DNA from: Pelagomonas calceolata
Taxonomy: Eukaryota
Length of the DNA stretch: 64,000 bases
Direction: 5' to 3'
Assembly (NCBI GenBank): GCA_918797485.1
Contig: CAKKNE010000002.1
Coordinates: 3,162,001-3,226,000, forward strand
The notes below the pieces were generated by a model. The model was not told the origin of the DNA, searched no databases, and saw only the letters and a program-made list of their open reading frames with translations. Within the stretch, counting starts at the first letter, position 1; each line of letters starts with the position of its first letter. Made by a program: the position numbers and the translations under genes. Below, in pieces: positions 4,292-63,349 of this stretch.

Positions 4292-4312
4292 GCTAGCGGC
4301 CTGTACACTAGC
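4292..4312 (+). promoter_or_regulatory. Upstream CTAG-box motif (3-nt deleted variant)
   Basis: GCTAGCGGCCTGTACACTAGC, upstream of the gene at 4539. Confidence 0.6.
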
Positions 4313-4538
4313 AAGCAAGCATAACTAAACCGCGCGGCAAGCCCGTATCGGCCACTGATCGGGACAAAATTAGTCGCGGCACAATCACAAACGCTACGTA
4401 AACGGCTCATTGAGCCGAAATCGGCTGCATAGGAAATCCTAGTGGGAGTTACATTGGACGTTAGTGAAGAGCACAACAGCGGTTTTTGGACTCGCGCGCG
4501 GCGCAAAATTTCAGTTTCAGCGTCGAGAGGAGTAACAT

Positions 4539-5376
4539 ATGTCACCAGAAAACGTACAAGTCTCGCGCCGCGCCGGCGCCCTCGCCGCGGCCATGAACGC
4601 CCGCCGCGTCCAGCGGGCGCGACTCCGCGCGGCGTTCTTCAATCGGTGGCGCGCGACGACCCTCGCGGCCGCCGTCCACGCGACGCGACGCCTCTTGGAC
4701 CCGACGCCCCGACCGGAGCCGAGCCCCGAAGCGGCTATCGGTGCCTTACGCCGCGATCTCGCGCGAGTGCTCGTGAAGGACTCGGCGCTCGACGAGAGCT
4801 GCATCAAGGCGGCCGCGGCGCGAGCGAGCGCCAAGCGGCGGCGGCGCCCGCTCACGCCCATTTCGCCGCCGCCGCCGCCGCCTTCGGTTCAGAAGGAGAA
4901 CGTCTCGCCGGGCGCGCGGCGCGTCAAACAACTCGGCCGCGGCATCCGACGGCTCTACGACGCCTACGCGACAACGCACGCGAAGAAGCTCTTCCCCGAC
5001 GCGGCAGTGGACCTCTTCCGCGACTGCGGCGTCGTCCCGGCGCACGCCTCCGCGGATGATATCAAGGCGGTCGTAGGAACGGAGCCGATCGACTACGGCG
5101 GCTCGTCCGCGGCGTCGACGCGTCGTGACTTCGACGTGGATCGATCGCGGCGATGCCGTGCCGGCGGACGCTGGCAACGACTCGGTTCACACAGGCTTCT
5201 GCAGGGCCGTCGCCGAGCTCGGCCACGTGTGCTTCTGCCGCGCCGTCGACGTCGAGGGCGTCGGCCGCGTCTGGACGCCTGCCAGGGACGACGACCCGCT
5301 CCGCGCGCTCTTCCGCGTGATCTCGTCGTCGAAGGCGTTCTACGCGGCGCAGAAGCACTCCGCAGCGCTCTGGTAA
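4539..5376 (+). CDS. Hypothetical protein, probably two exons (4539-5100, 5195-5376)
   Basis: Coding-like frame switches between EPIDYG and GFCRAVAEL. A phase-1 GC-AG intron ending cacacag at 5194 restores the frame. Start could instead be 4593. Confidence 0.5.
5101..5194 (+). other. Putative GC-AG intron (donor could also be 5098)
   Basis: gctcgt...cacacag|g; removal joins two coding-like frames. Confidence 0.5.
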
Positions 5377-5419
5377 ACATCAAAACTTAAACGAGGGGGC
5401 GGGGACAACTTCCACAACT

Positions 5420-5803
5420 TCAGTTCTTGCCGTTCTCGTCCTGGTACTTCTCGAGCGCCGACTTCCAGCCCTTGGGGTAGACCGACGCCTGCATGTGCCA
5501 GCCCTCCTTGAACCAGCGGCCGAAGATCGGCCCGAGCTTGCTCTCGTCGGGCCGGAAGTCGCCCGCGACGCGCAGGTTGATCTCGTCGGGCTCGTAGCCG
5601 AGCTGGGCCTGGATGATGTGCTTGAGGTCGAGGACGTCGTAGTCGTACTCGATGGGGATCTGGAAGGGCGCGAAGGACTGGTAGTTGCCGTCGCTGCCTT
5701 CCGGGCCGACGCCCATGATCATGATGTAGCGGTGGTCGTCGTCGAGGTGGTACATGGGCACCTGCTGCTCGAGCACCGCCGCGGGGTCGGCGCAGACGGG
5801 CAT
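5420..5803 (-). CDS. Small protein with ubiquitin-like fold pattern
   Basis: Strong GC3 codon bias. VLDLKHIIQAQLGYEPDEINLRVAGDFRPDESKL follows the V..LK..I....G......L...G....D...L Ubl pattern; no C-terminal GG. Confidence 0.6.
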   Translation of the reverse strand: MPVCADPAAVLEQQVPMYHLDDDHRYIMIMGVGPEGSDGNYQSFAPFQIPIEYDYDVLDLKHIIQAQLGYEPDEINLRVAGDFRPDESKLGPIFGRWFKEGWHMQASVYPKGWKSALEKYQDENGKN

Positions 5804-5820
5804 CGTGCGATTTTATGCGC

Positions 5821-5926
5821 CTGCGCGCGGCGGTGGCGTTTTGGGCGGCGACGGCGGCTCGTCTCGCGGCCGCGTCGACGGCGCCTTCGCGGTGACGGCA
5901 CGCCATCGATGCGACAGTGGTGTGAC
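5821..5926 (-). other. Putative 5'-UTR intron (GT-AG, 106 nt)
   Basis: Minus strand aag|gtcaca...gcgcag|gc ends 17 nt before the ATG and contains the shared intron motif. Confidence 0.5.
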
Positions 5927-9245: not shown

Positions 9246-10355
9246 ATGGCGGCGGTCACAGTCGACGGGACGGTCGTCGAAGAAGAGAAGGTCGACCTGG
9301 AGATTCCTCAGGAGAAGGTCGACGTCAAGAAGGCGGACGAGGCGGAGCCCGAGAGCGCCGGCGGCTGCGACGTCTGCTTGCCGCCGAACGGGCTCATCGG
9401 ATGCGGCGCCTACGATTATAAATATCTCTGCCTGCCGTCGATGCCCTGGTCGCGCGGCGGCGTCGCGCCGCCCCAGTTCCTTGGGAAGGACGCCCGCTTA
9501 CCGCTACTCCTCGCGCTCGTGATGGGCTTCCAGCACGCGCTGGCCATGGTCGCGGGCATCGCCACGTCCGGCGGCATGCTCATCGCTGGCGACACGTGCT
9601 TCCCGTGGCAGTACGACAGCGCCATGTGCGAGGCCCAGAATTACCTCGTCAGCGCCGCCTGGATCACGTCCGGCATCCTCACGATCATCCAGGTCTTCCG
9701 CGCAAAGATACGGGGCACGCCCTACTATTTGGGTACGGGCCTGCTCTCGGTCATGGGTACCTCTTTTACCTTCCTACCGATCGCGAGAGAGATGGTCGCC
9801 CGCTGTGTGGAAATCAAAATTTTACGGCGCGTTCAATCGTCACGTCGTCCTCCACGCCATCGACGCGACGCCTGCTCGATGGCGTGGCGATGCCGGTTCC
9901 TCGCCGCTCGACCGAGCCAGGACGGCCGCGTCATCGCCAAGAATTGTCGGGTACGCGCCGGCGACGTGCGAGGTCAACGGCTACACGTGGTGCGGACCCA
10001 GCGTTGCGTCGAGCTCCACGCCATCGATGCGACCCGCTCCGCTCGCAGGCCGTCGGACGCCAACGACTTCGACACGACGTGTGCCGCTGTGTCGGGCGTC
10101 TTCACGCCGGCCGTGACCGAGTCCGAGACGACGCGCACATGCGCGAACGACAACGGCCGCTGCTGCAACCACTACAACAAGCGCGAGGACTCGCACCGCA
10201 CGACTCTGATCATCCTCCTCAAGACTCCGTATGCGATAGGCACGATCGCCGCGCTCTTCCTCCACCTGTTGCTGCCCGAGGACCGCGTCCTAGACGAGGA
10301 GAAGGAGCACTACCCGCGGGCCTTCTCGGACGGCGAGATCGCCTACGAGACCTGA
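9246..10355 (+). pseudogene. Nucleobase:cation symporter-2 (xanthine/uracil permease) gene lacking its central part
   Basis: N-terminal LALVMGFQHALAMVAG and YLGTGLLSVMGTSFTF, C-terminal TPYAIGTIAALFLHLLLP. Only intron-like sequence and a short loop lie between them; most TM helices and the NCS2 signature are missing. Confidence 0.6.
9990..10048 (+). other. Putative 59-nt GT-AG intron
   Basis: tg|gtgcgg...ctcgcag|g joins GYTW to PSDANDF; contains CCACGCCATCGATGCGAC. Confidence 0.5.
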
Positions 10356-10981: not shown

Positions 10982-11005
10982 GCTAGCGGTCTGTAAGACA
11001 CTAGC
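10982..11005 (+). promoter_or_regulatory. Upstream CTAG-box motif
   Basis: GCTAGCGGTCTGTAAGACACTAGC, between divergent bL36 and dynein-like genes. Confidence 0.7.
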
Positions 11006-29380: not shown

Positions 29381-29404
29381 GCTAGCGGCCTGTAAGACAC
29401 TAGC
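29381..29404 (+). promoter_or_regulatory. Upstream CTAG-box motif
   Basis: GCTAGCGGCCTGTAAGACACTAGC, upstream of VPS53. Confidence 0.7.
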
Positions 29405-30803: not shown

Positions 30804-30825
30804 GCTAGCGGAGTGAGACACTAGC
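30804..30825 (+). promoter_or_regulatory. Upstream CTAG-box motif (22-nt variant)
   Basis: GCTAGCGGAGTGAGACACTAGC, between divergent genes. Confidence 0.6.
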
Positions 30826-32640: not shown

Positions 32641-32683
32641 TGTGCAAGTGTTGTAAGCAAATTATTATTATGATATACTATGT

Positions 32684-36346: not shown

Positions 36347-36450
36347 CAGCATCGGTGCCCCCAAGTGGTGCAAGGCTGAGACGCCGCATAGGACCGCTGG
36401 TGGAGCCGCAGGCTCGTGGAAAGTCACAGCTCTTCAGCGAGTGCGCAACC

Positions 36451-37113: not shown

Positions 37114-37128
37114 GTAACGACCTTTACT

Positions 37129-41422: not shown

Positions 41423-41446
41423 GCTAGCGACCTGAAACACACTAGC
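41423..41446 (+). promoter_or_regulatory. Upstream CTAG-box motif
   Basis: GCTAGCGACCTGAAACACACTAGC, upstream of the kinesin. Confidence 0.6.
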
Positions 41447-41735
41447 TCTAATCGGCTGTTGTAGTCTAACAACCCTTGCTACGCGCAGCGCCGGCCAAAA
41501 TACGGCCGCCAAATCCTTGTACGCAAGCCTATACACTCTGGCACGCGGCTGAACGCGAAAAATCGCACCGAACGGCGTCCCTCGCGCCGATTGACGGCGT
41601 TAAGCGCTCGAGGCCGTCGCAGCGCATTTTGACGCCCCGCTCGCGCCCCGCAGGCAGCGCGCGAGCTAGTGAAGGGATAGCAAGCAGCGCGCAACGAAAA
41701 AAAACAGCAAGCAACGCGCAACGAAAAAAAAAAAG

Positions 41736-44228: not shown

Positions 44229-44303
44229 AGCAGGAACCCCTCTCCCCTTTCCCTCCCCCGGTTTAAGCAGCCTGTTTATCGACAAATAGATTTAGTCTCG
44301 ACT

Positions 44304-44789: not shown

Positions 44790-44931
44790 GTTTGCTTGTG
44801 CAGCCTCTTGCTTTTGTGTCGCCTTGGAGGCTGCCCTTCGTCCTGGAGTGCTCTACGGTCCACGATTCGTGGAGTTTTGATGCCTTCGCGCCACAGGTGA
44901 CGTGCGAGCGAGCTGCCGAAACCAGAGAACT

Positions 44932-44955
44932 GCTAGTGTCTTACGTGCCGCTAGC
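44932..44955 (-). promoter_or_regulatory. Upstream CTAG-box motif
   Basis: Reverse complement is GCTAGCGGCACGTAAGACACTAGC; upstream of the gene starting at 44789. Confidence 0.7.
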
Positions 44956-45052
44956 CCTCGGATCTAAACGCGGAGCCCTTGATTTGCGCGCGCGGTCTAT
45001 CGGTACATATCCCGGACATATGAGAGCTCACAATACAATTAAAACAGTCATC

Positions 45053-46273: not shown

Positions 46274-46463
46274 TATTGCGTCCTCTTCTCCAGCGCACTC
46301 TTTGAGAGCTGAACCCAGACTGGCCTGTCTAAAAGCTGCGATGTCCCCTACGGCTTGTGATTGCCTGGGCGCGAGCGCACGCCTTCAAAGGCTTCAAAGG
46401 CTTTAATTCAAGCACACGTTTGGCATGCGTTCGGCCCGACAAGCCTGACCGCGAGAGGAGCGT

Positions 46464-46487
46464 GCTAGCGTAATGTAAGACACTAGC
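46464..46487 (+). promoter_or_regulatory. Upstream CTAG-box motif
   Basis: GCTAGCGTAATGTAAGACACTAGC, between divergent genes. Confidence 0.7.
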
Positions 46488-46569
46488 AAGCACGAGGTCG
46501 TGCAGCGCTTTACGAGGATATTCGCCTCCCGCGGCTGCCCCGCGCAGAGAACAGCTGCCCACGACCAAG

Positions 46570-47430: not shown

Positions 47431-47671
47431 CTTTCTTGTTTTTTTTGGATCTGTCCGGGCGAGTATCACGGAATGCTAGTATGTCACACCTAGGGTGGCA
47501 GGTAAAAAGTGCGCGGAGCGTGCCTCGGGTGCATTTTCGCACAGGTCTGGGCTTCTTGCGGGGTTTGTGGTGCTGGTGTATTGCTGCAACGCCCAGGAGC
47601 ACGCGCAACCGCTGCAGTTTCGCGCCATAAGCAAGCTTATCAGCACGACCACCGCTCACTGTGCCGCACGC

Positions 47672-50600: not shown

Positions 50601-50833
50601 ATGGAAACGGCGTCGAGTTCGAGCCCGAGGACCGGTTTGTGTACCTCAAAAACCTCATGTGCGAGTACCTCGCGACGGCCCCCGAGGACTCCGCGCGCGC
50701 GCCGATGGAGCGGGCGATGAAGGCCGTGATCGGCTTCGACGATTCCGACGCGAAGCGCCTCGAGGCGAAGAAGGCCGAGCACGCGAAGCGGGCGCTCGGC
50801 GGGCTGGCGGTGTTCTTCGGCGGGAGCGGGTAA
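47672..50833 (+). CDS. Long coiled-coil protein with C-terminal GRIP-like domain (golgin)
   Basis: About 1000 aa of A/E/K heptads; FVYLKNLMCEYL...MKAVIGFD at the C-terminus; ATG at 47672. Confidence 0.75.
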   Translation: MSFAAMSAQVVTPDAYNKLQQDHEQLRAKTAQLVGQFKALKAEKEAAAAEAAAKNDAVVAKTRELVARYKASQAEVEDLRSKAGAPDPALVERSRALAARYKQLQGEKAAADAEIANLRSSTSEAEASSFALETTKAELDVVRRELDAARKTTQGLRADAESAKKAAAAGSAEVAGLKQQLAAAGSTSSQAVDALQKELAAARADGDALRGADAASRKEIDALKGALDAARASTGDAEAAARQEADALRGEVQASRQETETLKKALEAARSNAHKAAKQEAEALRGEAAAARGECDKLKQALAAAQKSTGEAAAAAAKEVEALKGEAAKAREALSAARENANAKSKAIETARAEAKAAVAAAKSEAQAAQAKLQGEVDAAKEQLATATAALEAARQSSGDAAKQTSAAVEAAGREADKLRGELRAAQQAAKSAATEAQQGAAKAAAALDAAKADAAAATQEAKKLQSALAAARQDAGDAASAREAADAANSEAQKLQSDLASAKKTIDEQAQKLKAAERGRDEAVAAAATTKTLAEKTAEKAGRETSKLKEELAAARQGAGDAAKQTAAAVDEARAEAKAARGDADAARKEAKAAQDAVDAARNETKAAQDLLAAARETSVAAAQKLTEAIDGAAAAKKENAALRDALAKASSGGGAAETEAQRLKKELAALGDRFDDASASLDAAKAEAGEITHQLETCVVKSEEAAKTLGAALEAARQENDAARKENLRLAGELEDAKQALHDARDTADQATAGSADAVAAAKAELERLAGDVTSLRSELKEKDAQLSVAAELEAKAKAQLAEAEDSAKRMQAVQQSATATQAQLADAVKEAVDNNEVLARELKARDDERAALEADLAAAKGELEAARTEAGAAGDREALETAAAAREEAWRAEVDELKAKVSELAAAKADVVDVLRRAKAADGTELAKAKAEAADAKKRLAEVEAAAQSLRSGADAVRQKFQQLESENATLRANGNGVEFEPEDRFVYLKNLMCEYLATAPEDSARAPMERAMKAVIGFDDSDAKRLEAKKAEHAKRALGGLAVFFGGSG

Positions 50834-50847
50834 GATTACTACTAGTA

Positions 50848-52185
50848 CTAACTCTCTTTACCATTGTAATACCAAGAGTGAATAATACGACCATCGTCAA
50901 CCATACCAAAACCAAGTTGCAATTCATCAAAATCGCAGGCTTCGACCGTCGCGCCGCGGTCCTTCAAGAGATCGACGATGCCTTGACACAGTACACGATC
51001 TAGTCCGGCGCGGTCGCTATCGTACTCGCGCAGAGACCAGCCCAGACCCCTAAGATTCGGGCAGCCCTGGAGGAGGCGGAGCACGTCAGCGGCGCTGAGT
51101 GGACTTCCTGGTTCCGGGGGATCCGAGGCGGAGTACTCAATTGTGATACTAGAGAGCGTCGCTGCGGACTGGCTCCGAGTTATTGCGTCGACAATACCCG
51201 AGGTCAAGAGGCCGAGATACTCGAGCTCCAACCACTCCAGGCGTAAGTGAGAGCAGGCCGCAGCAATACATGCGTCCGTCGTCGTTTCGTCTTCGAGATG
51301 GAGGCACGTGATCCGCGCAGTCGTGCGCGAGAGATCAATATAAAATCCTGGCCCCGGCATCGAAGAACCCTGGGGTATTTTGAGCGAGCAAAACTCCGGA
51401 AAGCCGCGGGCCGCGGCAAGAATTGCATCGGGTTCGAGCACAGTGTCGTCATCGATCTCGCCAAAGTGCTGGAGGCTATCGCCGAGGGGCGTGCCGACGA
51501 TGGCCTCGATAACGTCAGCGGTGACATGGCAGCCATCTAATTCCAGGTACCTCGCGTGGCGGCAAGTGAGCGCCGTTTTTCTTATGGCATCGATGAGCGT
51601 CGGCCTGTAGGGTCGGCTGCCGCCGTCGAATAATAAATTGACGTGATTAAGCCGGGGGAAATGGTGCTCGTAAGTTTCTGCGGGACTGTGCCCAATGTGC
51701 GAGAAGCTTACCTCATTCAAATCGGGACAGGCCGCACTGATGGAAATCACGGTACTATCAGGGATAGCAACACTCGATGGACCTCGTAACTTGGTTAATT
51801 TTGGCGATGCCTGGCACATCCTCAGTAGTGCCTCCGCCGTAACGTCGCAGGTCCATAAATTGAGCGAGAACAAACCACCATTCGTTCTCCGGACGAACGC
51901 GTCGAGCGCCGCGATCCTTTCCGGGGAACGAACATGGGCGGAGAGACGAATGCAACCGGCGCCGAACACGCGCCCCACGGCCTCGTCGCGTCGCGGATCC
52001 GCTTCGCCGCGAAAGTGAACATGCCGGCACAGGAACGAGCACGACGACGAGAGCCCGCGCTGCGCCAATGCGAGCCCGCTTTTGGAGGTCGCGCGCAAGG
52101 CGTATAATTCCTTGCTTATCCGGAAGCTGTACTGTGCCACCTTCGTGGTGAGGACCTCTTCTGGCAGAGAATATGTGGTGCCCAT
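50848..52185 (-). CDS. RNI-like leucine-rich repeat protein, possible N-terminal F-box
   Basis: SLPEEVL at the N-terminus; SPKLTKL, CPDLNEV, LELDGCHVT, GCPNLRGL LRR-like units. Confidence 0.6.
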   Translation of the reverse strand: MGTTYSLPEEVLTTKVAQYSFRISKELYALRATSKSGLALAQRGLSSSCSFLCRHVHFRGEADPRRDEAVGRVFGAGCIRLSAHVRSPERIAALDAFVRRTNGGLFSLNLWTCDVTAEALLRMCQASPKLTKLRGPSSVAIPDSTVISISAACPDLNEVSFSHIGHSPAETYEHHFPRLNHVNLLFDGGSRPYRPTLIDAIRKTALTCRHARYLELDGCHVTADVIEAIVGTPLGDSLQHFGEIDDDTVLEPDAILAAARGFPEFCSLKIPQGSSMPGPGFYIDLSRTTARITCLHLEDETTTDACIAAACSHLRLEWLELEYLGLLTSGIVDAITRSQSAATLSSITIEYSASDPPEPGSPLSAADVLRLLQGCPNLRGLGWSLREYDSDRAGLDRVLCQGIVDLLKDRGATVEACDFDELQLGFGMVDDGRIIHSWYYNGKES

Positions 52186-52338
52186 CCTGTCTTGCAGGTT
52201 GGGCTGCCCCTGGCACCTGGTACGACGATTGCGCGCGTAAGATCTGTGTGCTCGCTAGTATGTATGTTGTTATAGCCCCCCCCTCGCCCGCTGACGAGCG
52301 GTTGCGAAAAACGAGACTTGATGCCCCTCACAGCCCCA

Positions 52339-52362
52339 GCTAGTGTCTTACATGCCGCTAGC
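52339..52362 (-). promoter_or_regulatory. Upstream CTAG-box motif
   Basis: Reverse complement is GCTAGCGGCATGTAAGACACTAGC; lies between divergent genes. Confidence 0.7.
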
Positions 52363-52453
52363 TCTCGCAACAAACGCGCTTTGCTGCCGGCCTCTCTCCG
52401 CATCCTGTGTTTGTTTTCGACTCCTCTTTTGGCTGCTGTTGGATCGCTGCATA

Positions 52454-53419
52454 ATGCCAGCACTCATGCTGCGCTCGCTGGCTCTCACAATGGTTTGCTC
52501 TCAGACCACAGCCTGGGTCCGCGCGCCCACGCTGCGACCACCGTCGTCGCGCAACGGTTTCTTAGATGACGCGTTGGACAACGTCAAGTCCGGCCTGGCC
52601 AAGATGTCGCAGACGGCGACGGTCCAGCACGTGCTCGTGCCGAGCCGGACGACGGCGCTCAAGCTGCAGCGCGAGTGCTGGCCCAGTGTTTTGAAATGAA
52701 GCGCCACGCCATCGACGCGACGGGTCCGTCCATCACGCAGGGCGGAGGAGGAGGGCGTGAGCCCCGAGGTCATCGGCCGCCTCGCGCAGCAGTACTCGAC
52801 GTGCGGCTCCGCCCAGAAGACGCCCGACGCCTCGTTCAAGATGCTGCGCGGTCGGCCGGGCGAGCTGACCTTCAAGCGCGGCGAGATGGCCAAGGAGTTC
52901 GAGGACGTCTCTTTTACGGCGCCCGTCGGCAGTTTACAAGTCGTCGACACGCAGTTCGGGTCGCATTTGATTTACATCAACGCGCGCGACGACGCGGACC
53001 CGAAGGTTGGAAGGGGGAAGAAATCCAAAAAGCAGAAGGGCTTCGGCGTGCGGGGCGGCTTCGTTGCGCCGACGCGGACGAGGCCGTCTTCACGTCTCGC
53101 CGCCTCGAAACTACCCCCGCTCGTCGAGAAGCTGCAGTTGTTAGTACCGTTGGGCTTCGTCGCGCAGATCAGTTTTCTGGTTGCGTCAAATCAAATCTCG
53201 GGGCCCGAGAATTTGGAGGAGTACGGCCGCATCGGCACGGAGTACCTGAAGACGAACACCGACTTTTCGGGCCCGCGCGGCGAGGTCATGCGCATCCAAT
53301 CGGAGGCCCAGCAGATCTGGTGGAACAACGTGCTCCGGGACCTCGAGGCGGGCCGGCCGGTCAAGCCGCCCATCACTTCCCCTTACCCGAAATACGAGCT
53401 GTTCAAGGGGGGGAGTTAA
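52454..53419 (+). CDS. Plastid-targeted parvulin (PpiC-type PPIase) with extra C-terminal module; exons 52454-52674 and 52741-53419
   Basis: VQHVLV, LAQQYSTCGS, GELTFKRGEMAKEFE, TQFGSHLI; leader ...SQTTA-W; start is 52454 or 52466. Confidence 0.8.
52675..52740 (+). other. 66-nt GT-AG intron
   Basis: ga|gtgctg...cacgcag|g removes an in-frame stop and joins the parvulin halves; contains CCACGCCATCGACGCGAC. Confidence 0.8.
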
Positions 53420-53571
53420 GTTTTGTGGCTCAATCCTGCCGCCAGTGAGGTTGCGGAAAGGGGGGAGAGAAGTTGAGATGATAGTACGATACGTTTTTAT
53501 CCACAAGGCTTGGTCCGGGGAACGGGAAGGCGGGCGGGAGAGGGAGAGGAAGGGAAGGAAGAGGCTTCTTG

Positions 53572-56500
53572 CTAGCGCGAGCCGCGGAGGCGGCGAGCGG
53601 CGGGCGGCGGCGCGTCGACGACGCGCAGGTCGCCCCACCAGTGGGGGCCCGAGTCGTCTTTGTAGTTCCAGGTGGCGAAGTAGCCGTCGCCGTACGTGTC
53701 GTCGACGGCCTCGGCGCTGCCAAGCACCCAGTCGCCGCGCATGATCTGACACGTGATGCGGTTGCCGACGGCCGAGCCGGAAACCGTGTACCACGTCCCG
53801 GGCTCGAGGGCGAACGCTGGTGCGTAGGAGGCGACCGTCGACCGGCTCCCGTCCTCGCGCAGCACCTCGACCGAGAGCGTCGAATCCGCCTTGCCGTCTC
53901 GTCCCGTGTTGACGGTGCAGCGGTAGCCCGCGCGGGGTTGGTAGCGGAAGGAGTCGTCCCAGTCGTCCGTGACGCGGAGCAGCAGGCCGTAGTCGCGGCG
54001 GATCGAGCCCTCGGACATAATTCGCGCCGAGATCGTCGCGTCGGTTTTGGGGGCCGCCGTCGCGTACGATGAAGAGAAGCGGTCGTCGCCCGACCGCATG
54101 AGGCATCCTTCTTCGTCGTCGTCGTCGCGCGTTGCGCCGAAGGTGAGGGACCCGCTCACGACCGCCATCTTGGTCCCGTCGTCGCGCGCGCAGAGCGAGA
54201 GCGCGCCCGCGGCCGTCGGGGCGGCCGTCGGCATCGCTGACGGTCCCAACGTGGGCTTGGCCGTCGGGTGGACGGTGGGCCGCGGCGTCGGGCGCGGCGT
54301 GGGCCGCGGCGTGGGCGTCGGCGTCGGTTCCGGCGTCGGGCTCGTCGTCGGTTCGGGCGTGGGCTCCGGCGTCGGCCCCGCCGTCGGCGCGGCGACGGGC
54401 TCGCGCGTCGGCGCGGCCGTAGGGACGAATGTCGGTTTGAGCGTGGGCGAGACCGTCGGCGCCGTCGGGTGCGCCGTCGGGCTGGTCGTCGGCGGCGCGA
54501 AGCACGCGACAAGAACTTCGTCGGACGTCGCGTGCTCGGACTCGAGCCCGCCGGGGAACACGGCCCACGCGCGGGCGCGGACCTTGTCGCCGCACGCGAT
54601 GTCGGGCGTCTGCAGCAGGAAGTAGCGCCGGCCGTCGTGGTGGCGCGGGATGTCAAATCCGTACTCGGGCCCGTGCCAGGCGCCTTCTCCATTCACGCGG
54701 TACTCGACCCAGAAGGTCTCTCCATGATCATAATTCCAGTGCAGCAGCATCACGCTGTTCATCTCCGGGGGGCTCACGAGCTGGACATCGGTGAGCGGGT
54801 CGGGGACGGCCGAGGGCGCGTAGGTCGTTTTCATGGAAGGCGCGTAGCTCGGGACGGCGGTCGGTTGAGAAACGGGCGGCGTCGTGTGGTGCGTCGGCGT
54901 GTCGGTCGCGGCCGACGTCGGGCGGTAGGTCGGGGCAGGAAGTGCGTCGGGCGGCACTTGTTGCATCGTCGGCCGCGGCGTCGGTCTCAACGTGGGGTCG
55001 CCGCCGGACACCGTCGGCCGCGGCGTCGGCGCCGGGATCGGTCTCGCGGTCGGTCTTAAAGTCGGCGCCGGGATCGGTCGCGGCGTGGGCCGCACCGTTG
55101 GCGCCGGGAGCGCCGCCACCGTCGGCGATAATGTAGGCGCGCGCGCGCTCGAGAAGACGTGCACCTCGAATCTGCCGAAGTCGCCGCCCTCCATAACCAC
55201 TTCACCGTCGATCCGGAGCTTGTACCAGCCCTCGCCGAAGGCGCAGCAGTTGCCGTCGCCCCAGGCGTCGTAGATCGCCCACCGGTAGGTGCACGCGCCG
55301 CGGGGCAGCGCGACTTCCTGCTCGATGTACGGCTCGTCCGAGTTGAAGGGGCCGCCGGCCTTCTCGCCGGGCCAGTCGCACTCGTCGGCGTCGCCCTCGA
55401 CCAAGTCCAGGGTCCAGGTCGTCTCTTGCGGGTAGTTGTCCGTCTGGATCTCGATGTGTAATCGTAAACGGTTCTCGGTCGGCGCCATGGACGTCGTCGG
55501 TTTCATCGAAGGCGCGGCGGACGTCGGCACTTTGGTGATTGTCGGGGCCGCCGTCGGCGCGCCCTCTACACAACAGTCGACGAACGCCTCGGCATCTACT
55601 AAACCTTTGCCGAGCTTGCCCTCCATGGCGGGGGTGTTCTCCGACGTGATGTCGGCGGCCGTGTCGTACAAACAGTGAAGCAGCTCGGCCTTCGACGCGT
55701 TCGGGTTCGCCGACTTTCCTAAGGCTAAAATGCCGGCGACATGCGGGCACGCCATCGACGTGCCACTTGCCGTGCCGTAGCCTTCGTCGGTCATCGTCGA
55801 CATGACGTCGACGCCCGGCGCGCTGATGTCGACCCACTCGCCGTAGTTAGAGAACGACGCCCGCGTGCCGCCGTTGTCTAGGGCGGCGACGCCGACGACG
55901 CCGTCGTAGCAGCCGGGGTAGTAGCACGCCTCGGAGTTGCTGTTGCCCGCGGCGAAGACCACAATACCGCCCATGTCATTGTAATAATCAATAGCGTCGA
56001 GCACCGCCTGCTCGTAGACGTCGGGCGAGGTGTAGCCCCAACTATTGGATGAGATCTGCGCGCCGTTGTCCGCGCCGTAGACCAAGGCCTCGGCGAAGCC
56101 GCCCGTGTTCGAGTCGCCGAAGCCCAGCGAGATCATGAGCCGCGCGCCGCTGTCAGGAGAGCCGTTCCCGCCGGCGACGCCCGCGACGCCGATGCCGTTG
56201 TTCGTGTCCGCGGCGATGGTGCCGCCACAATGACTGCCGTGCCAGTGGCCGCCCAGTAAATCGTTGCCCGTGTCGTCGGCGTGGTTGTAGCCGTTGCAGT
56301 CGTCGACGTAGCCGTTGCCGTCGTCATCAACACCGTTGCCGCAGATCTCGCCCGGGTTCTGCCAGATGTTCTGCTGGAGGTCCGGATGATTGGTGTCGAT
56401 GCCCGTGTCGAGGACTTGCACGACGACGTCCGGAGAGCCGGTCGTGTGGTTCCACGCACCAAAAAGGTTGGCGACGTCGTAGTGGTGCTGCGAGTCGAGC

Positions 56501-57088
56501 ATGGGGTCGTTCGACGCCGCGGCGAAGAGGCTGATCTTGAGTTCCGCCTCGGCGGCGGACACGGCCGCGCCGAGCGTGTCGTCGTGCGCCGTCAGCGCGG
56601 ACATCTTCTCGAGGGCCGCGACGGTCGCGGCGCCGCCCTCGCTCTCGCACTCGTACCACATGTCGAGGCCTGCGCAGGACGAGCGTTCGGACGTGCGGGC
56701 TTCCTTCACTGATTCGCCGGCGCCAGCGGCGTCTCTGAAATTGATTGTGGGACACTGCGGACGCACCGTGCGCCTTGTGCTGCTTCTCGTGCGTCTTGCT
56801 CGGTCGGAACAGACGGTGCGGGTTCTTACACGCGACGCCGTCGGCAATTTTCCCGGCAATGGCCGCGGCGCCGTCGGCCGAGGCCGCGACCGCGCTGCTG
56901 TCCAGCTTGTAGCGCAGGCGCTTGTTGACCGTGTCGGGCTTGCCCTTGAGATCGTTGATGGTGGCGTCGAGCTTGTCGTGCACCGCCGGAGACATGGCCG
57001 ACGAGCCTCCGAGCAAGGCCAATGCAAAAAGGACGCGCCGCGCGGCTCCTGCAGTGTTTGCAGTGGTTTTTCGATGGTTTGCAGCCAT
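53572..57088 (-). CDS. Secreted subtilisin (S8) protease with PT-repeat linkers and C-terminal beta-sandwich modules; exons 57088-56767 and 56669-53572
   Basis: Catalytic triad VLDTGID, HGSHCGG, GTSMACPHVAG; FAAGN oxyanion Asn; hydrophobic signal LFALALLGGSSA in exon 1. Confidence 0.9.
56670..56766 (-). other. 97-nt GT-AG intron
   Basis: cacg|gtgcgt...tgcgcag|gc joins KQHKAHG to LDMWYE. Confidence 0.75.
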
Positions 57089-57396
57089 TTCTGGTAGGTT
57101 GCGAGCTTATTGGGGGTAGTTTGCGAAGGTGCCAAATTGTGATGTGTTGGAGCTGCCATGATGGTGTTTTCAGGGACCATGCCGGGCAGCCTCGATTTGC
57201 GGCAGAGGCCAGGAAACAAGGCGGTGCGATTTGATTGGGCCTTCTTTTGTAGTATTTCTAAGACCCATATCACTGCTCGGAGATACATAGCACGCTACCC
57301 CAATCACCGTCGACGCGCCCAAGCAACACAAAAAACACCGGGCCGCGCGCGAGAGACCGACATCTGAAACCTAAAGCTTACGACCCCCGTCATAAT

Positions 57397-59166
57397 CTAG
57401 GGCGTCAGGCGCCCCGGGTCGCGCGGGAAGCACGAGGTCTTGCGGATGTTCGTCAAATCCAAAAAGAGCATGACCACCCGCTCCAAGCCGACGCCGCCGC
57501 CGCCGTGCGGGAACGCGCCGAACTTGAACGCATCGGTATAACCCTTGATGGAGTCGGGGTGCGGCCCGCCGTGGCCCGCGTCGCCGTGGCAGTGGTTGAC
57601 CCGCTCCATGAGTAAGGTATGGTCGTGGATGCGCTGCGCCCCGGAGCAGATCTCTTGACCCCGCATGAAGATGTCGTAGCTATTGGACAACTGTTCCGCC
57701 GCGGGTACTTTCTTATAAGTAGCAGGATCCGGCATGGTATAGAACGGTCGGATCGACAGGGGGTACTTGTCCATGATATAAAAGTCGGTATCGTACTTTT
57801 CTAAGATGAGATCGCCCAAGATCTTCTCATTTACCGTAGATAGATCATCAAAAGCGCCCTGTTGTTCTTCGGTGACGCCCGCTTCTCGCAGCAACGCAAT
57901 ACCCTCCGCAAAACTAATTCTGAGAGGCTTATCCAAAAATTTGAACGGCTGGAACGGGTAGACCTGCGATACCAACTCCAGCTCCTTGCCGTACTTATTT
58001 TGTAAAGTACGGAAGATATGGTTGAATAACTTGCCGAACAAATCCAGGACCTCGTAGTAGTGCTCGTAGATGGCCATCTCGAAGTCGAGGCCCGTGAACT
58101 CGCACAAATGCCTCCGCGTGTTGCTGTCCTCCGCGCGGAAGACGGGGCCGATCTCGTACACTCGTTCGAAGTCGGCGCATGCTGAGAGCATCTGCTTGTA
58201 GAGTTGGGGCGACTGGGCTAAGCAGCAGTCCCTTCCAAAGTACTCGAGCTTGAATACCGACGAACCACCTTCTGATGATCCAGCTAACAATTTAGGGGAG
58301 TTGACTCCCGTAAAGCCCTGGTCGTTGAGGTAGGACGCAAATAAGAGAGGTACCGCACTTCGAATGCGCATGATGGCCTGGTTGGCCGGGGTTCGTAGAT
58401 CAATCACCCTATGATTCAAGCGCGTGTCCAACCCAACCGTGACTTCGCCCTCCTTCGGGTCGTTCTCGTTGCGACTCGCGTCGACGATCTGGAACGGCAG
58501 ATCGGGTACGGCTTTGGACACGATAAAGCACTTCTTGATCGCGAGCTCGACAGTCGATTGGGTGGTGGCCGAGACCTGGGCCGATGCTACTGAAGCTTCC
58601 ACATCTACAATAGATTCGGAGGGGATCTTGCCCAGGAACGCGACCATGGCCTTGGGGATGGCCGGGGCGCTTGCGACGCCCTGCACCGTGAAGCAGCCCT
58701 GCCTCAGGACGACGAACGCTAAATTGCCCTTCGCTCTGACAGCATGCACTCTAGCGCGGACCCACACGTCGCTCCCGATCAAATGAGGTCCCACAGCACC
58801 GACGGACGTCCACCGCCGCGCCGTCATGGACGCACTCATACAAACCCCGGGCTCGCCGAAGACGTCGGCCGACGCGGCTTCCGCTTCTTTGGCCTTGGCC
58901 GCGTCCTCGGCCGCCTTCTTCTGCTTGGCTAATATCCTCAATTCTTTTTTGGAGGGGCCTTGCGGCGCCTTGGCCTTCTCCTTCTTCTTTTTTTTATCTA
59001 CAATGGCTAAAGCGTGATTGGGGTCGAGGGCCGTGATCTCCTGCTTGAGTTTCAATAAGCCGGCGACCTCGGCCTTGATCGTGTCGGCGTCGGCTTTGCT
59101 GGTCTTGAGCTCCTTGACCTTGAGGCCTTGCGCGCTGATCTGCTGCTCGAGCTCGGGGACGCCCAT
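57397..59166 (-). CDS. DARS: Cytosolic-type aspartyl-tRNA synthetase with N-terminal WHEP-like domain
   Basis: OB-fold VRARVHAVRAKGNLAF, RVIDLRT, LAQSPQLYKQ, GPVFRAEDSNTRRHLCEF, SGAQRIHD, GGGVGLER, FPRDP. Confidence 0.95.
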   Translation of the reverse strand: MGVPELEQQISAQGLKVKELKTSKADADTIKAEVAGLLKLKQEITALDPNHALAIVDKKKKKEKAKAPQGPSKKELRILAKQKKAAEDAAKAKEAEAASADVFGEPGVCMSASMTARRWTSVGAVGPHLIGSDVWVRARVHAVRAKGNLAFVVLRQGCFTVQGVASAPAIPKAMVAFLGKIPSESIVDVEASVASAQVSATTQSTVELAIKKCFIVSKAVPDLPFQIVDASRNENDPKEGEVTVGLDTRLNHRVIDLRTPANQAIMRIRSAVPLLFASYLNDQGFTGVNSPKLLAGSSEGGSSVFKLEYFGRDCCLAQSPQLYKQMLSACADFERVYEIGPVFRAEDSNTRRHLCEFTGLDFEMAIYEHYYEVLDLFGKLFNHIFRTLQNKYGKELELVSQVYPFQPFKFLDKPLRISFAEGIALLREAGVTEEQQGAFDDLSTVNEKILGDLILEKYDTDFYIMDKYPLSIRPFYTMPDPATYKKVPAAEQLSNSYDIFMRGQEICSGAQRIHDHTLLMERVNHCHGDAGHGGPHPDSIKGYTDAFKFGAFPHGGGGVGLERVVMLFLDLTNIRKTSCFPRDPGRLTP

Positions 59167-59321
59167 GGCTTTGCTGTGGCGTGCTGCTTGAGGTGGTCGC
59201 GTCGGCTAGCGTGCGGTTGCAGCTGTGTTGATGCTGCCTTGTTCTTGCAATCGCCGTGCAGCAATGGCAAGCAAGTGAACGCCCACTCGCTGTGTGTGGC
59301 TCGTCGACGATTTTTGGGAGA

Positions 59322-59343
59322 GCTAGTGTCTTACAACGCTAGG
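59322..59343 (-). promoter_or_regulatory. Upstream CTAG-box motif (22-nt variant)
   Basis: Reverse complement is CCTAGCGTTGTAAGACACTAGC; between divergent AspRS and HAD-ankyrin genes. Confidence 0.65.
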
Positions 59344-59660
59344 GTCGATGTTTCTCCAGCAGTCTTCTTTCGCTGCATCTCAGTGCCGAAAGCACGCATG
59401 GCTCATGCAAGGCCACGGCCCCTGAAGCTTGGACTTTTGGCCACCGCAGTCCGTGATTGATGCCCCATTAATCGGCTGGTGATTGGGTTGCAAACGACAT
59501 AACCTGCGAAGGACGCGAGTTCGATTGCATCTATCGCTGCTGCATATTGGCAGACTTTGGTAGGGAGAGCAGACAGCTCACCACTCAAAGACTCAAACGT
59601 GCGCTGCTTTGATAGGTTGCACGCCACGCATTTGCGACCAGGATCACGCGTTGTGTGTGA

Positions 59661-60818
59661 ATGCGTTCGAAACTCCTGATGATGGCCGCGCGCGGCCTGT
59701 CAACGACAGCACGGCGCCCGCTGCGAGGCGTCGTCTTCGACCTGGACGGCACGCTCACGGTGCCGAACCTGGATTTCAAGGTCATGTACGAGCGCTGCGG
59801 CGTCCCTCAGAACGAGGACATTCTCGAGGCCATCGCGGCGATGCCCGACGCCGAGGCCGCAACAGCCGCGGCGATCGTCGAGGAGATGGAGGAGGAAGGG
59901 CGCCGGACCTTGGAGCTGACGCCGGGCGCGCGGGAGTTCGCCGAGTGGCTGGCGCGGCAGGGCATTCCCACGGCCCTCGTGACGCGCAACACACGCGCAA
60001 CAATCGACCACCTCCACGCGACGCTCTGGAAGGGCCTGCCGCCCTTTTCGCCCGCGATTTCTAGGGATGACACCTACGCGCCCAAGCCGCATCCCGCGGC
60101 GCTCGAGGCCATTTTGAAGACGTGGGAGATCGCTGATCCGGCCGAGGTTGTGATGGTCGGGGACTCGCCGGCGAACGACGTGGTCTTCGGGAAGAAAGCG
60201 GGCGTGGCGACGGCGCTCGTCGACTCCGGAAGACGGTTTGTAGAAGGTGGCTCCGACGAAGGCGCTTCCATGGTAGTGGAGAACATCGCGGCCTTGGCCG
60301 CCGGCTTCCACGAGCGCTTCGAGCTCCCGAAGGCGGGCCCGCTTCAGAAGTACGACGTCCCTTCTCCTAGTTCGGACGCGGGGAAGGCGGCGGTTGCTGG
60401 GGACCTGGCCCGCCTCGAGGCCTGCGCCGACGTCTCTCTTCCCGACGCCTCGGGGAACACGCCGCTCATCTGGGCGGCCGACAGCGGGGCCGCCGACGTT
60501 ATTCCTTACTTGCGGGACCGCTGCGACGTGAATCACCGCGGCTATCTTGGTGCAACTGCTGTGTGTCGCGCGGCCCGCAAGGGCCATCTCGACGTTTTAC
60601 AATTATTGCTCAAGGCGGACGTAGACGTTAATCTACCGAATGACAAGATGCAGTCGCCGTTGCACTTCGCAGCCTTCAAGCAGAACCGCGCTTGCGTGGA
60701 TGCGCTGCTCGCCGCCGGTGCGTCGACGTACGTCCTCGACCGCAAGGGCCGCACGCCGGCGGAAGACACAAGTGACGAAGAGATCCGCGCGGCCATCCTG
60801 GATGGCCGCGCTAGCTAG
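59661..60818 (+). CDS. HAD-superfamily hydrolase fused to ankyrin repeats
   Basis: VFDLDGTL, VTRN, KPHP, MVGDS; GNTPLIWAA, GATAVCRAA, QSPLHFAA, GRTPA ankyrin units. Confidence 0.9.
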   Translation: MRSKLLMMAARGLSTTARRPLRGVVFDLDGTLTVPNLDFKVMYERCGVPQNEDILEAIAAMPDAEAATAAAIVEEMEEEGRRTLELTPGAREFAEWLARQGIPTALVTRNTRATIDHLHATLWKGLPPFSPAISRDDTYAPKPHPAALEAILKTWEIADPAEVVMVGDSPANDVVFGKKAGVATALVDSGRRFVEGGSDEGASMVVENIAALAAGFHERFELPKAGPLQKYDVPSPSSDAGKAAVAGDLARLEACADVSLPDASGNTPLIWAADSGAADVIPYLRDRCDVNHRGYLGATAVCRAARKGHLDVLQLLLKADVDVNLPNDKMQSPLHFAAFKQNRACVDALLAAGASTYVLDRKGRTPAEDTSDEEIRAAILDGRAS

Positions 60819-60840
60819 TGTTGTAATATGCAAAAAGTTA

Positions 60841-61497
60841 CTACGCGTGCAGCGCCGCGAGCTTCTCGTTGAGCGACTTCAGGAGCCCGCTCTCCGTCTC
60901 GAGGGCGGCCCTCAACTCCGTGACGATGCCCTCGGCCTCCTTGGCGATCCTGGCGAGGTCCTCCGGGGTCGTCGCGGCGGCCGCCGGCGCCGCCGGCGCC
61001 GGCGACGCGGCGGCCTCGGTCGCCGACATGGCCGGCGTCTTATCCTCCTCGACGGGCTCGACGGTCGCCGCCGCCGCTGCCTCGGCTTTCTTCGCGGCCC
61101 GTGCGGCCTTTCGCTCCTCCTTGGTCGATCCGTCGGACGCTGCGGTCTCAGAGACGGGCTCGACCGTCGCGGCGGCCGGCGCCGCGGCTGCGGCCGGCGC
61201 GGCCGCTGTGGCCGCCGGCGCCGCGGCCGTGGCCGCCGGCGCCGCCGGTGCCGCCGCGGCGGCGGCCTTGGCCTTCTCGGCCTCGGCGAGCATGGCCTTG
61301 GCTTTTTCCATAGCGGCGGCAGCTTCAGCCATGGCCTTCTCGCGCTGCGCCTCCTCCTGCTTTTTTAAGTCGGCCGCCTCGTCCTCGGGGACCAAATTCA
61401 CCTCCTGGAGCGTGCGGCCTCGGCTGCGCGTTGCTCTCAGGTTGTCCGCATGGGAGAGGCTGAGGGCCAATGCTACGACGAGCTTGCGCAGCATCAT
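60841..61497 (-). CDS. Secreted Ala/Glu/Lys-rich protein
   Basis: Signal peptide MMLRKLVVALALSLSHA, an NLRA...RTL propeptide-like stretch and a coiled-coil end. Confidence 0.6.
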   Translation of the reverse strand: MMLRKLVVALALSLSHADNLRATRSRGRTLQEVNLVPEDEAADLKKQEEAQREKAMAEAAAAMEKAKAMLAEAEKAKAAAAAAPAAPAATAAAPAATAAAPAAAAAPAAATVEPVSETAASDGSTKEERKAARAAKKAEAAAAATVEPVEEDKTPAMSATEAAASPAPAAPAAAATTPEDLARIAKEAEGIVTELRAALETESGLLKSLNEKLAALHA

Positions 61498-61710
61498 CGA
61501 CGGTCGCTCGCGAGGCCGGGGCTATGGGATGATGCGGGGGCAGCTTTTAAAGCCGTGGGAGCGCACGGTGTTGGTTGCAGGAGATGCACAAAAATTATTT
61601 TGTGTCCAGCAAGTGATCGAGAGGCCGCCTAGCAGGCGCTCTGCTTAGCCGCGTCTGTCACTCTGCGGTGGTAAGTATCCAAATAATCACAGATTACACA
61701 CAGAATAAAA

Positions 61711-63129
61711 TCACCCGCGCGGCATCTCCGAGTAGTCGTCGACGACGAAGGAGCCGCTCGTCGCTCGCGTCGTCGGCGCGGCCTCCTCCATGAGCGGCTC
61801 CTCCAGGGAGTCCTCCGTCGGCGCGCGCCGCCGCGGCACCAAACCCGCGGTGTGCGGGTCGACGCGGCCTACCAACGCCAGCCAGACCAATGCCGCGATT
61901 AATTGTGTTGCGGCAGTCACGACAAACGTCAGGGCGTACCCTCCTCGATCGACCAAATAGCCGCCGAGCACGGCGCTCCCCGACCAGCCGAACCGTGTGA
62001 CCCCGTCGAGCGCGTTCCAGCGGCCTCGACTCGCGTGAGGCACGTGGTCGTTGAGCGCCGCCTTTTTTAATGGGCGACAGGCGTGCTGCGCGCAAGTGAG
62101 CAAATATAAGAGAACTGCACCGGCGCGCTTGATGGTTGACGTCAACGCGGGCCGCCCGGGGCGCAGGACGTTTAGACGCCCTGCGTCGGCCCAAGCCAGA
62201 CCTATCAGTGCAATCGCGGCCAGGACCATGCAGACGGCGCAGACGCGAGCTTTCCCGGCGGACTGGCTCCACCGCTCGCAGACCCGCGACCCGCAGATCA
62301 TAACTAAAGCGGCGCCGATGGACAACGCGTTCGCCGCGACGGGCGAGAAGGCCGCCCGGTTCTTGAAGAAGAGCGGAATAAACTTCACCGTCATGCCCGA
62401 CCCGAAGCCTGATATTAGATCCGCCACCAGTATCAGCCGCGCGATGCCCTCGTCGCCCTCCTTGTCTGCCTCCTCGTCGTCGCACGCATCCGCGCCCACG
62501 TCTCGCAACCCCAGTAAGAGGAGCGCCGGCGGCGCGCACAGCGCCAGACCGACGACTGCCACTGTTTTCAGCGCGGCGAGGGACCAGTCGTCCCCAATGC
62601 ATAGGAAGAGCACCAGCGCCAGCGCCGGGCCCGCCGTCGTCGCCAAAAGGGTCAGCATGAATTTTTGTGATGTCGCCTCGGCGCGTTGCGCGCCGCGCGT
62701 CGTCGAGTCCGCGAAGAGCGTCTCGAGGGCCGTGCTCCACACTCCTTGATACGCGCCGAACGCCGCAAGGCCGACCGTGACGTAGTCGAAGCGCGCCCGG
62801 GCGGAGACGTCGCTTACGGCAATGGCCAGGATCAGTCCTAACGAGGCCACCACGCCCGTGACGCAGGCGACGCGGCAGACGGTCCGCCGCCGGAACCGGT
62901 CGGCCGCCCAGCCCGCGAGCAGGCCGCAGGCGCACTGCGCGATGCCCTGGGCGCCCTCGGCGAGGCCCACCCGCGCGTTCGACCCGCCCGTGAGCACGTA
63001 GAGGTAGCCGCTCAGCACGGCGTAGGACCAGACTCCTCGTGCCGCGCCGGCCGCCAGCGTGAAGGCGTAGGCGAGGCTGAGGTTTCTTGCTTTTGTCTTG
63101 TCGATTGTTGGTGTGGGTGGAGCGCACAT
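61711..63129 (-). CDS. Major facilitator superfamily transporter
   Basis: GWAADRFRRR (MFS motif A), about 12 hydrophobic segments, GGYLVDRGGY; ATG at 63129. Confidence 0.88.
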   Translation of the reverse strand: MCAPPTPTIDKTKARNLSLAYAFTLAAGAARGVWSYAVLSGYLYVLTGGSNARVGLAEGAQGIAQCACGLLAGWAADRFRRRTVCRVACVTGVVASLGLILAIAVSDVSARARFDYVTVGLAAFGAYQGVWSTALETLFADSTTRGAQRAEATSQKFMLTLLATTAGPALALVLFLCIGDDWSLAALKTVAVVGLALCAPPALLLLGLRDVGADACDDEEADKEGDEGIARLILVADLISGFGSGMTVKFIPLFFKNRAAFSPVAANALSIGAALVMICGSRVCERWSQSAGKARVCAVCMVLAAIALIGLAWADAGRLNVLRPGRPALTSTIKRAGAVLLYLLTCAQHACRPLKKAALNDHVPHASRGRWNALDGVTRFGWSGSAVLGGYLVDRGGYALTFVVTAATQLIAALVWLALVGRVDPHTAGLVPRRRAPTEDSLEEPLMEEAAPTTRATSGSFVVDDYSEMPRG

Positions 63130-63325
63130 TCTATCAGAGCTTGTGCGCCGCCCGGCGGCCCGCTGGTTGCACAGGGCTCCCGCTTCAGAGAGGCTCTCTG
63201 GTACTACCCTAGTCGAAGTCGTGCGGCAAGCGCACTGGGTCCAGAGCTTCTCGCAACTTGCGAGTTTCCCAAATTTCACGTGTAAGCTGCGGTGTAGGAG
63301 CTGCCAGCTCGTGCAGCAGCCGCTT

Positions 63326-63349
63326 CCTAGTGTCTTACAGACCGCTAGC
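63326..63349 (-). promoter_or_regulatory. Upstream CTAG-box motif
   Basis: Reverse complement is GCTAGCGGTCTGTAAGACACTAGG; lies between divergent genes. Confidence 0.7.

What the first reader, a model, noticed from the sequence alone, without database searches (positions are those of the whole stretch)
4292..63349. A long, conserved 24-bp motif marks most promoters: GCTAGCGGNNTGTAAGACACTAGC
Seen: 12 clear copies at 4292, 6090, 10982, 29381, 30804, 36323, 41423, 44932, 46464, 52339, 59322 and 63326, plus a weak remnant near 47475. Each is a single copy in an intergenic gap, about 65-320 bp upstream of the neighbouring start codon(s). Eight sit between divergent gene pairs. I found none in coding sequence or in the convergent (tail-to-tail) gaps. 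Both orientations occur, the CTAG-containing ends and the AGACACTAG half are the most conserved parts, the middle varies, and the flanks are unrelated. The neighbouring genes are functionally unrelated (dynein, bL36, Vps53, AspRS, MFS, kinesin). Inference: this is a general bidirectional promoter or nucleosome-positioning element, much longer than typical eukaryotic core promoter boxes and probably bound by a dimeric or multi-finger factor. Alternatives are a replication-origin/insulator element or a domesticated transposon end. I know of no description of it, but I cannot search the literature.
Basis: partly seen in the sequence, partly recalled or inferred. Interest (0 to 1): 0.88.

Follow-up and report, generated by a model that had tools for sequence, protein, structure and literature searches.

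The report
Long palindromic promoter mark in Pelagomonas
A 24-letter near-palindromic DNA motif sits once in many promoter gaps of an abundant ocean alga (most likely Pelagomonas), about 30 bases before the apparent RNA start at the four genes where one could be seen, and likely acts as a TATA-box substitute read by an unknown two-part protein that probably spread by DNA copying.

Summary
The motif is real: 12 window copies score 26-42 bits, nothing else exceeds 10; 0 matches in 100 shuffles. About 6,200 metagenome stretches hold it; two sampled loci match Pelagomonas calceolata proteins. It is a pseudo-palindrome with near-invariant arms and an indel-tolerant middle. It stays at least 47 nt from start codons (0 of 113 nearer than 45 nt) but not from stops (6 of 32). 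In stranded RNA reads, four motif genes show 5'-end pile-ups 28-31 nt past the right arm (one sample, not CAGE). 'Most promoters' is overstated: 12 of 20 gaps here, 14 of 52 elsewhere. No flanking target-site duplication and no real hairpin. But about 9% of copies share a longer upstream block, and 8 of 134 carry a footprint-like insert at the right CTAG, so the copies likely descend from a repeat. Best reading: a bidirectional factor site that fixes the Pol II start, resembling DRE/DREF or CERP2/HIM-17. The binder and function are untested. Not found in 10 paper searches.

The parts
4292..4312 (+). motif copy, 3-nt deletion in the middle; tandem gap
   Evidence: 28.9 bits
4236..4291 (+). upstream block ('module A') shared with non-orthologous loci such as L015, L089, L030
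6090..6113 (-). motif copy, perfect; divergent gap
10982..11005 (+). motif copy; divergent gap upstream of dynein heavy chain
29381..29404 (+). motif copy, perfect; tandem gap, left arm faces Vps53
30804..30825 (+). motif copy, 2-nt deletion; divergent gap
   Evidence: 26.5 bits
36323..36346 (+). motif copy; divergent gap RsmB / ribosome recycling factor
36374..36374 (+). RNA 5'-end pile-up of the RRF gene, 28 nt past the right arm (minor one at 36369, 23 nt)
   Evidence: 12 and 17 molecules in X21 and X24
41423..41446 (+). motif copy, 3 mismatches; tandem gap upstream of kinesin
44932..44955 (-). motif copy; tandem gap; module A remnant on its left-arm side
44901..44902 (-). RNA 5'-end pile-up, 30-31 nt past the right arm
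   Evidence: 29+23 and 17+17 molecules
46464..46487 (+). motif copy; divergent gap upstream of a GNAT gene
46515..46515 (+). RNA 5'-end pile-up, 28 nt past the right arm (the other run shows 46547, 60 nt)
   Evidence: 6 molecules in X24; 7 at 46547 in X21
52339..52362 (-). motif copy; divergent gap; end of a 117-nt block (52246-52362) shared with L008/L106
59322..59343 (-). motif copy, 2-nt deletion; divergent gap AspRS / HAD-ankyrin
   Evidence: 30.1 bits
59291..59291 (-). RNA 5'-end pile-up of AspRS, 31 nt past the right arm
   Evidence: 7 molecules, listed in X23 only
63326..63349 (-). motif copy; divergent gap, right arm faces the MFS gene

Best explanation
The 24-mer is a two-armed pseudo-palindromic DNA site placed once in promoter gaps, and it likely binds a sequence-specific dimeric or two-domain factor that opens the promoter and likely sets the RNA polymerase II start about 30 nt beyond its right (ACACTAGC) arm, as a TATA-box substitute that can serve genes on either side. 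Shown: sequence, symmetry, placement, conservation pattern, 5'-end offset at four genes. Inferred: protein binding, a causal role in initiation, and looser or more distant initiation off the left arm. Also inferred: the copies are related by descent, spread by copying of promoter-sized or repeat-derived DNA and then trimmed by selection to the bound 24 bp, with spare neighbouring copies decaying.
For: Bimodal scores, 12 at 26-42 bits and nothing between 10 and 26. Arms (positions 2-7, 18-23) differ at 6 of 384 letters versus 20 of 192 at the equally weighted positions 12-17, P=4e-6; 12 of 32 copies not selected by the exact pattern have a changed spacer length; the CpG in the left arm is kept. 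In 122 fetched loci, information falls to background within about 2 nt left and 5 nt right of the motif and flanks fall into 117 clusters for 124 hits. Pattern hits with both neighbours called: 22 divergent, 11 tandem, 1 convergent; 1 of 124 in a weakly called ORF. 0 of 113 ATGs versus 6 of 32 stops within 45 nt, P=8e-5. In 30 divergent gaps the motif lies at 0.34-0.78 of the gap. All 12 window copies in different gaps, P about 0.01. 5'-end pile-ups at 28, 28, 30-31 and 31 nt; chance of so tight a cluster about 7e-5, computed after choosing the nearest-fitting pile-up per gene. Descent: 14 of 151 sites (4 are the seeds) share an upstream block versus 0-2 in control orientations; decayed twin copies in L089, L099, L030 and near 36240.
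Against: No binding, accessibility or reporter data. The RNA is poly(A) RNA-seq from one sample (about 6-12% of each run read), so pile-ups only approximate starts; two listed pile-ups at motif genes fall off the window (23 and 60 nt), 11 rows of the begin/end tables were hidden, and none was listed for the 7 genes facing a left arm. Motif-less genes are expressed as well (34300 and 61584 genes, depth up to 110 and 66), and a gene facing the right arm of 52339 is nearly silent, so the site is neither necessary nor sufficient. No initiator-like letter pattern appears 15-50 nt outside either arm. Spacer changes of -3 to +1 nt are odd for a rigid dimer. Gene calls in the loci come from a simple codon model trained on the window.
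Confidence: 0.66

Rival explanations
1. The site is a chromatin landmark (nucleosome-free-region maker, insulator or replication origin) bound by a general factor; the start-site offset is a by-product of where the +1 nucleosome falls, not of direct recruitment of the initiation complex.
For: One copy per gap, central in divergent gaps, orientation-independent, no gene-function bias, no clear expression difference between motif and motif-less genes.
Against: The offset is tight (28-31 nt) and seen only on one arm's side; density of 1 per 5-11 kb is high for origins (general knowledge).
Confidence: 0.16
2. It is a selfish or neutral micro-element: the 14-16 bp remains of a DNA transposon that inserts at CTAG/TA in open promoters, with no host function.
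For: Formally every copy is an insert between duplicated TA or CTAG (118 of 118); shared upstream blocks; a 10-nt present/absent difference between allelic loci L008 and L106 and recurrent inserts at the right CTAG.
Against: Arms are far better kept than the middle; few intermediate decayed copies; flanking letters are asymmetric, unlike a palindromic target preference (P<1e-4 at each of 4 positions); one copy per gap and none in the longest window gaps; fixed distance to RNA ends.
Confidence: 0.13
3. It acts as a hairpin or cruciform in DNA or RNA.
For: 8-9 of 12 position pairs are complementary in the consensus.
Against: Seven folds of five copies give -1.6 to -4.2 kcal/mol, z between -1.3 and +0.5; positions 1 and 24 do not co-vary (P=0.58); the motif lies upstream of the RNA 5' ends; no Rfam match in the window or 120 of 122 loci scanned.
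Confidence: 0.03

Closest known systems
C. elegans CERP2/CELE2 m1m2 promoters bound by HIM-17 (bioRxiv 10.1101/2022.01.21.477252; part 1 of 5 of the text read)
   Same: An inverted motif pair found at a large share of promoters (36% of germline promoters there), required for activity there, derived from a repeat; a transposase-related reader.
   Different: There the parent MITEs are recognisable and thousands of non-promoter copies remain; here about 90% of copies have no shared flank, almost none lie outside promoter gaps, the arms are joined by only about 6 bp, no parent element or reader is identified, and the genes share no function.
Drosophila DRE/DREF and human ZBED1 (PMC7471704; passages read)
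   Same: Palindromic promoter site read by a self-associating factor descended from a hAT transposase.
   Different: DRE is 8 bp with another sequence; this site is 24 bp, two-armed, spacer-tolerant; no BED/hAT reader was looked for.
Drosophila Motif 1/M1BP-TRF2 and TATA box (PMC5737516 seen as search listing; TATA position of about -30 recalled)
   Same: A sequence-specific site at a set distance from the start of TATA-less genes.
   Different: Those are short, non-palindromic and directional; this one is long, symmetric and serves either side.
Toxoplasma AP2XI-5 site GCTAGC (PMC13734140; passages read)
   Same: The same hexamer forms the left arm; promoter-enriched with a positional peak (-84 from the annotated start there).
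   Different: A single 6-mer in 12% of promoters, tied to a late cell-cycle programme, in a distant phylum; here two arms in a 24-bp unit.
Oomycete INR+FPR and DPEP core elements (PMC3599244; abstract read) and SNAPc USE/PSE (PMC8287931; passages read)
   Same: Long TATA-less core elements in a stramenopile; upstream start-setting element.
   Different: INR+FPR overlaps the start and is not palindromic; USEs listed are 8-9 bp, of other sequence, and belong to snRNA genes.

Membership tests
Pol II core/proximal promoter element | fixed distance to transcription start | tested here: met
   28-31 nt at 4 of 4 motif genes with a listed 5' pile-up; poly(A) RNA-seq, one sample
Pol II core/proximal promoter element | confined to promoter gaps | tested here: met
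   26 sites in 73 promoter gaps, 0 in 59 convergent gaps, 1 doubtful in 196 kb of called CDS
Pol II core/proximal promoter element | required for initiation (mutagenesis) | not testable with these tools
   needs reporter or genome editing
Pol II core/proximal promoter element | bound by a sequence-specific factor | not testable with these tools
   inferred from symmetry and arm conservation only
MITE / DNA transposon copy | target-site duplication outside the element ends | tested here: not met
   no excess of 3-10 nt duplications at boundaries -4 to +1; only the motif's own TA/CTAG repeat
MITE / DNA transposon copy | homology beyond the motif, bounded by terminal inverted repeats | tested here: inconclusive
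   14 of 151 sites share a 30-70 nt one-sided block with ragged ends, no TIR seen
MITE / DNA transposon copy | uniform neutral decay and copies in any tolerated place | tested here: not met
   arms 6/384 vs 20/192 changes; motif-less gaps no better than shuffles, P=0.72
CERP2/HIM-17-type co-opted MITE promoter | parent MITE family with non-promoter copies | tested here: inconclusive
   none found in 370 kb; no whole genome held
CERP2/HIM-17-type co-opted MITE promoter | transposase-derived reader | not tested
   no genome to search
DRE/DREF | 8-bp DRE palindrome | tested here: not met
   sequence differs
SNAPc USE/PSE | upstream of snRNA genes | tested here: inconclusive
   no Rfam gene in the window or 120 loci; the organism's snRNA promoters could not be fetched
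structured RNA or DNA hairpin | stable fold with compensatory changes | tested here: not met

The most novel reading that the evidence does not exclude
A transposon- or repeat-derived 24-bp site has become the general core promoter of a large part of this alga's genes, read by a domesticated transposase-like dimer that replaces the TATA box; it is still being copied between unrelated promoters, and a TA-duplicating transposon is steered to its right CTAG, where insertion regenerates the site and does no harm.
Probability: 0.22. Interest if true: 0.88.

Novelty: new variant of a known kind. Interest (0 to 1): 0.68.

Why it matters
Core promoters of photosynthetic stramenopiles are poorly defined, and Pelagomonas is abundant in the open ocean. 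A 40-bit motif that predicts the start site would give an immediate annotation mark, a short bidirectional promoter for transgenes, and a bait to find a master regulator of thousands of genes. If the repeat ancestry holds, it is a case of a mobile sequence taking over general, not tissue-specific, initiation.

Tried and rejected
No whole genome was held, so no genome-wide scan. Viral contigs: 0 matches. Prokaryote genomes: 4 hits, all matching the consensus at the unconstrained first and last positions too, in marine bins, GC 0.59-0.66, one or two per genome even at 2 mismatches; L123 looks like a bacterial peptidase gene joined to eukaryote-like DNA; read as mis-binned algal DNA, not proven. 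Half-sites near the motif-less starts 34300 (28 nt) and 61584 (25-27 nt) looked suggestive, but score under 8 bits and motif-less gaps as a class match shuffles, so they are not counted. Longer ATG distance on the left-arm side (median 192 vs 150) is not significant (P=0.06; 18 of 30 paired). No initiator pattern. No second motif replaces it in 35 motif-less gaps, apart from GGCTGCCC, which also occurs near motif copies without a fixed position. The repeat shared by L001/L003/L021/L025/L041 is a multicopy protein gene family, not a carrier element. No full element with the footprint's ends was found in 374 kb. Run X5 (another organism's library) gave only low-depth pieces identical to the window, so it says nothing about other species. 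Conservation in other pelagophytes such as Aureococcus could not be tested. Earlier-findings look-ups gave nothing on this motif.
Full report
Observation. The pattern matches 9 places in the window with up to 3 mismatches and never in 100 shuffles. A gapped profile built from outside loci finds exactly 12 sites at 26.5-41.9 bits and nothing else above 10 bits; shuffles give none at 16 bits or more. With genes from Pfam, a codon model and RNA strands, copies lie in 8 of 9 divergent, 4 of 11 tandem and 0 of 9 convergent gaps, one per gap (six gene pieces added by hand, one intron dropped from the tandem class). The empty convergent class is uninformative in the window (P=0.44 by length) but all 12 in separate gaps is unlikely (P about 0.01).

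Organism and spread. The window is 63.7% GC; the best named relative of its ribosome recycling factor is Aureococcus at 75%. An exact 18-letter pattern is held by about 6,200 stored metagenome stretches, estimated from 2 of 64 parts; 122 loci were fetched. One locus is 99% identical to the window. Of 10 locus proteins looked up, 8 were found and 2 fall in clusters naming Pelagomonas calceolata; the other clusters gave no organism. The organism is therefore most likely Pelagomonas (inference). Viral contigs gave 0 hits and 185,579 prokaryote genomes 4, probably mis-binned algal DNA. Other pelagophytes could not be examined.

Anatomy. The 124 pattern hits have flanks in 117 clusters. Information drops to background within about 2 nt on the left and 5 nt (AAGC-like) on the right. 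The consensus is a pseudo-palindrome: arms GCTAGCGKC and GACACTAGC around a 6-nt core. In 32 copies not chosen by the exact pattern (12 window, 20 locus), positions 2-7 and 18-23 differ at 6 of 384 letters, positions 12-17 at 20 of 192 (P=4e-6), and 12 of 32 have a length of 21-23 or 25 nt; my scanner allowed gaps only in the middle. It does not fold better than shuffles, its ends do not co-vary, and Rfam has no match in the window or 120 of 122 loci.

Placement outside the window. Of 124 hits, 34 had both neighbours called within 700 nt: 22 divergent, 11 tandem, 1 convergent; 1 lay in a weakly called ORF; 89 lacked one or both neighbours. Leaving out the gap that was searched for, 9 of 26 divergent, 5 of 26 tandem and 0 of 50 convergent gaps hold a copy, about 1 per 11 kb against 1 per 5 kb in the window. 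So it marks many, not clearly most, promoters; a few thousand copies per genome is an extrapolation. Pooled, 0 of 59 convergent gaps has P=0.03 by length. No start codon lies within 45 nt (0 of 113; nearest 47) while 6 of 32 stops do. Either arm can face the gene in tandem gaps (8 vs 7) and the motif is central in divergent gaps. Genes with and without it have the same share of Pfam hits (35 of 86, 16 of 38) and no common function. Motif-less gaps hold no excess of weak copies.

Transcription. Stranded poly(A) reads of one sample were laid on 28600-48000 and 47000-64000. Listed 5'-end pile-ups at motif genes: 36374 (28 nt past the right arm; minor 36369, 23 nt), 44901-44902 (30-31 nt), 46515 (28 nt; 46547 at 60 nt in the other run) and 59291 (31 nt, one of three runs). 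Four of 8 genes facing a right arm and 0 of 7 facing a left arm had a listed pile-up; depth was low for most of the rest and 11 rows were hidden. Other listed ends (34300/34308, 61582/61584, 52650-52668, 40568, 52795) are not at full copies. These are fragment ends, not capped starts, and the chance estimate (7e-5) is after the fact. Motif-less genes are well expressed and one motif gene is nearly silent, so the site is not an on/off switch.

Origin. There is no duplication outside the motif at any boundary tested; the only universal repeat is its own TA/CTAG, and flanking letters are asymmetric, unlike a simple insertion target. Yet 14 of 151 sites (4 are seeds) share a 30-70 nt block on the left-arm side versus 0-2 in controls, including 4292 and 44932 with unrelated genes; in L089, L099 and L030 that block separates two tandem copies, one decayed; 52246-52362 recurs at another promoter; and 8 of 134 right arms carry a footprint-like insert absent from left arms, present in L106 and absent in its allele L008. 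A 40-bit word cannot plausibly arise thousands of times by point mutation, so copying followed by selection on the 24 bp is the simplest account (inference). Whether the parent was a transposon end, a MITE or a tandem repeat is open.

Mechanism. Most likely (0.66) a dimeric or two-domain factor binds the two CTAG arms, keeps the gap open and places Pol II initiation about 30 nt past the right arm, with the left arm serving the opposite gene. Rivals: chromatin landmark or origin with an indirect offset (0.16), functionless targeted micro-element (0.13), hairpin (0.03).

Comparison and novelty. It works like DRE/DREF (PMC7471704, passages) or CERP2/HIM-17 (10.1101/2022.01.21.477252, part 1 of 5), and shares its left hexamer with the Toxoplasma AP2XI-5 site (PMC13734140, passages), but is a member of none by the features tested. 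It differs from oomycete core elements (PMC3599244, abstract) and listed USEs (PMC8287931, passages). Ten library searches, including four substrings of the motif (67 papers, 40 listed, none on algae by title), showed no description; the P. calceolata genome preprint has no occurrence of 'motif' or 'promoter' in its main text. Subscription papers on pelagophyte methylation, introners and pangenomes (recalled, not seen) and bioRxiv supplements were not searchable and could hold a logo of it. Verdict: real, probably functional, apparently undescribed; new variant of a known kind; interest 0.68.

Noticed in passing
window 40127-40588: A MITE-like element: 107-nt arms 97% complementary (40158-40264 / 40441-40547) inside G-run/C-run ends, filling the one divergent gap that lacks the motif; RNA reads with loose ends show transcribed relatives elsewhere in the genome.
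   Followed up: partly
window about 52265-52668, minus strand: A roughly 400-nt antisense poly(A) RNA over the 5' part of the gene at 52455-53419 and over the motif at 52339, deeper than the sense RNA in that bin in all three runs; no ATG-started frame over about 75 codons in 52201-52720.
   Followed up: partly
window 52246-52362; L008 4762-4894; L106 300-430: A 117-nt block (motif plus downstream DNA) shared at about 80% between promoters of different genes: promoter copying between loci.
   Followed up: partly
L042, L043, L044, L067, L068, L069, L092, L106: Recurrent insert starting GGCATCC or GGGATG right after the TA of the right-arm CTAG, in both orientations; 8 of 134 right arms, 0 of 134 left arms, 4 of 1549 other CTAGs. 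Looks like a footprint of a TA-duplicating transposon (IS630/Tc1-mariner targeting of CTAG is recalled, not checked) or a flipped mini-hairpin inherited by a subfamily.
   Followed up: partly
window about 9806-10060 and 52675-52741: Introns or inserts of a repeated family also seen in L021, L034, L035, L058; introner-like by recall.
   Followed up: no
window 50848-52185, minus strand: A 445-codon ORF with no Pfam hit, missed by the codon model and nearly silent in three RNA runs, although it faces a motif's right arm.
   Followed up: no
window 29894-30540 and 40246-40892: Reads on both strands; possible antisense transcription or repeat mapping.
   Followed up: no
L123-L126: Prokaryote genome bins carrying perfect copies of the algal motif, probably contamination; the motif could flag Pelagomonas DNA in bins.
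   Followed up: partly
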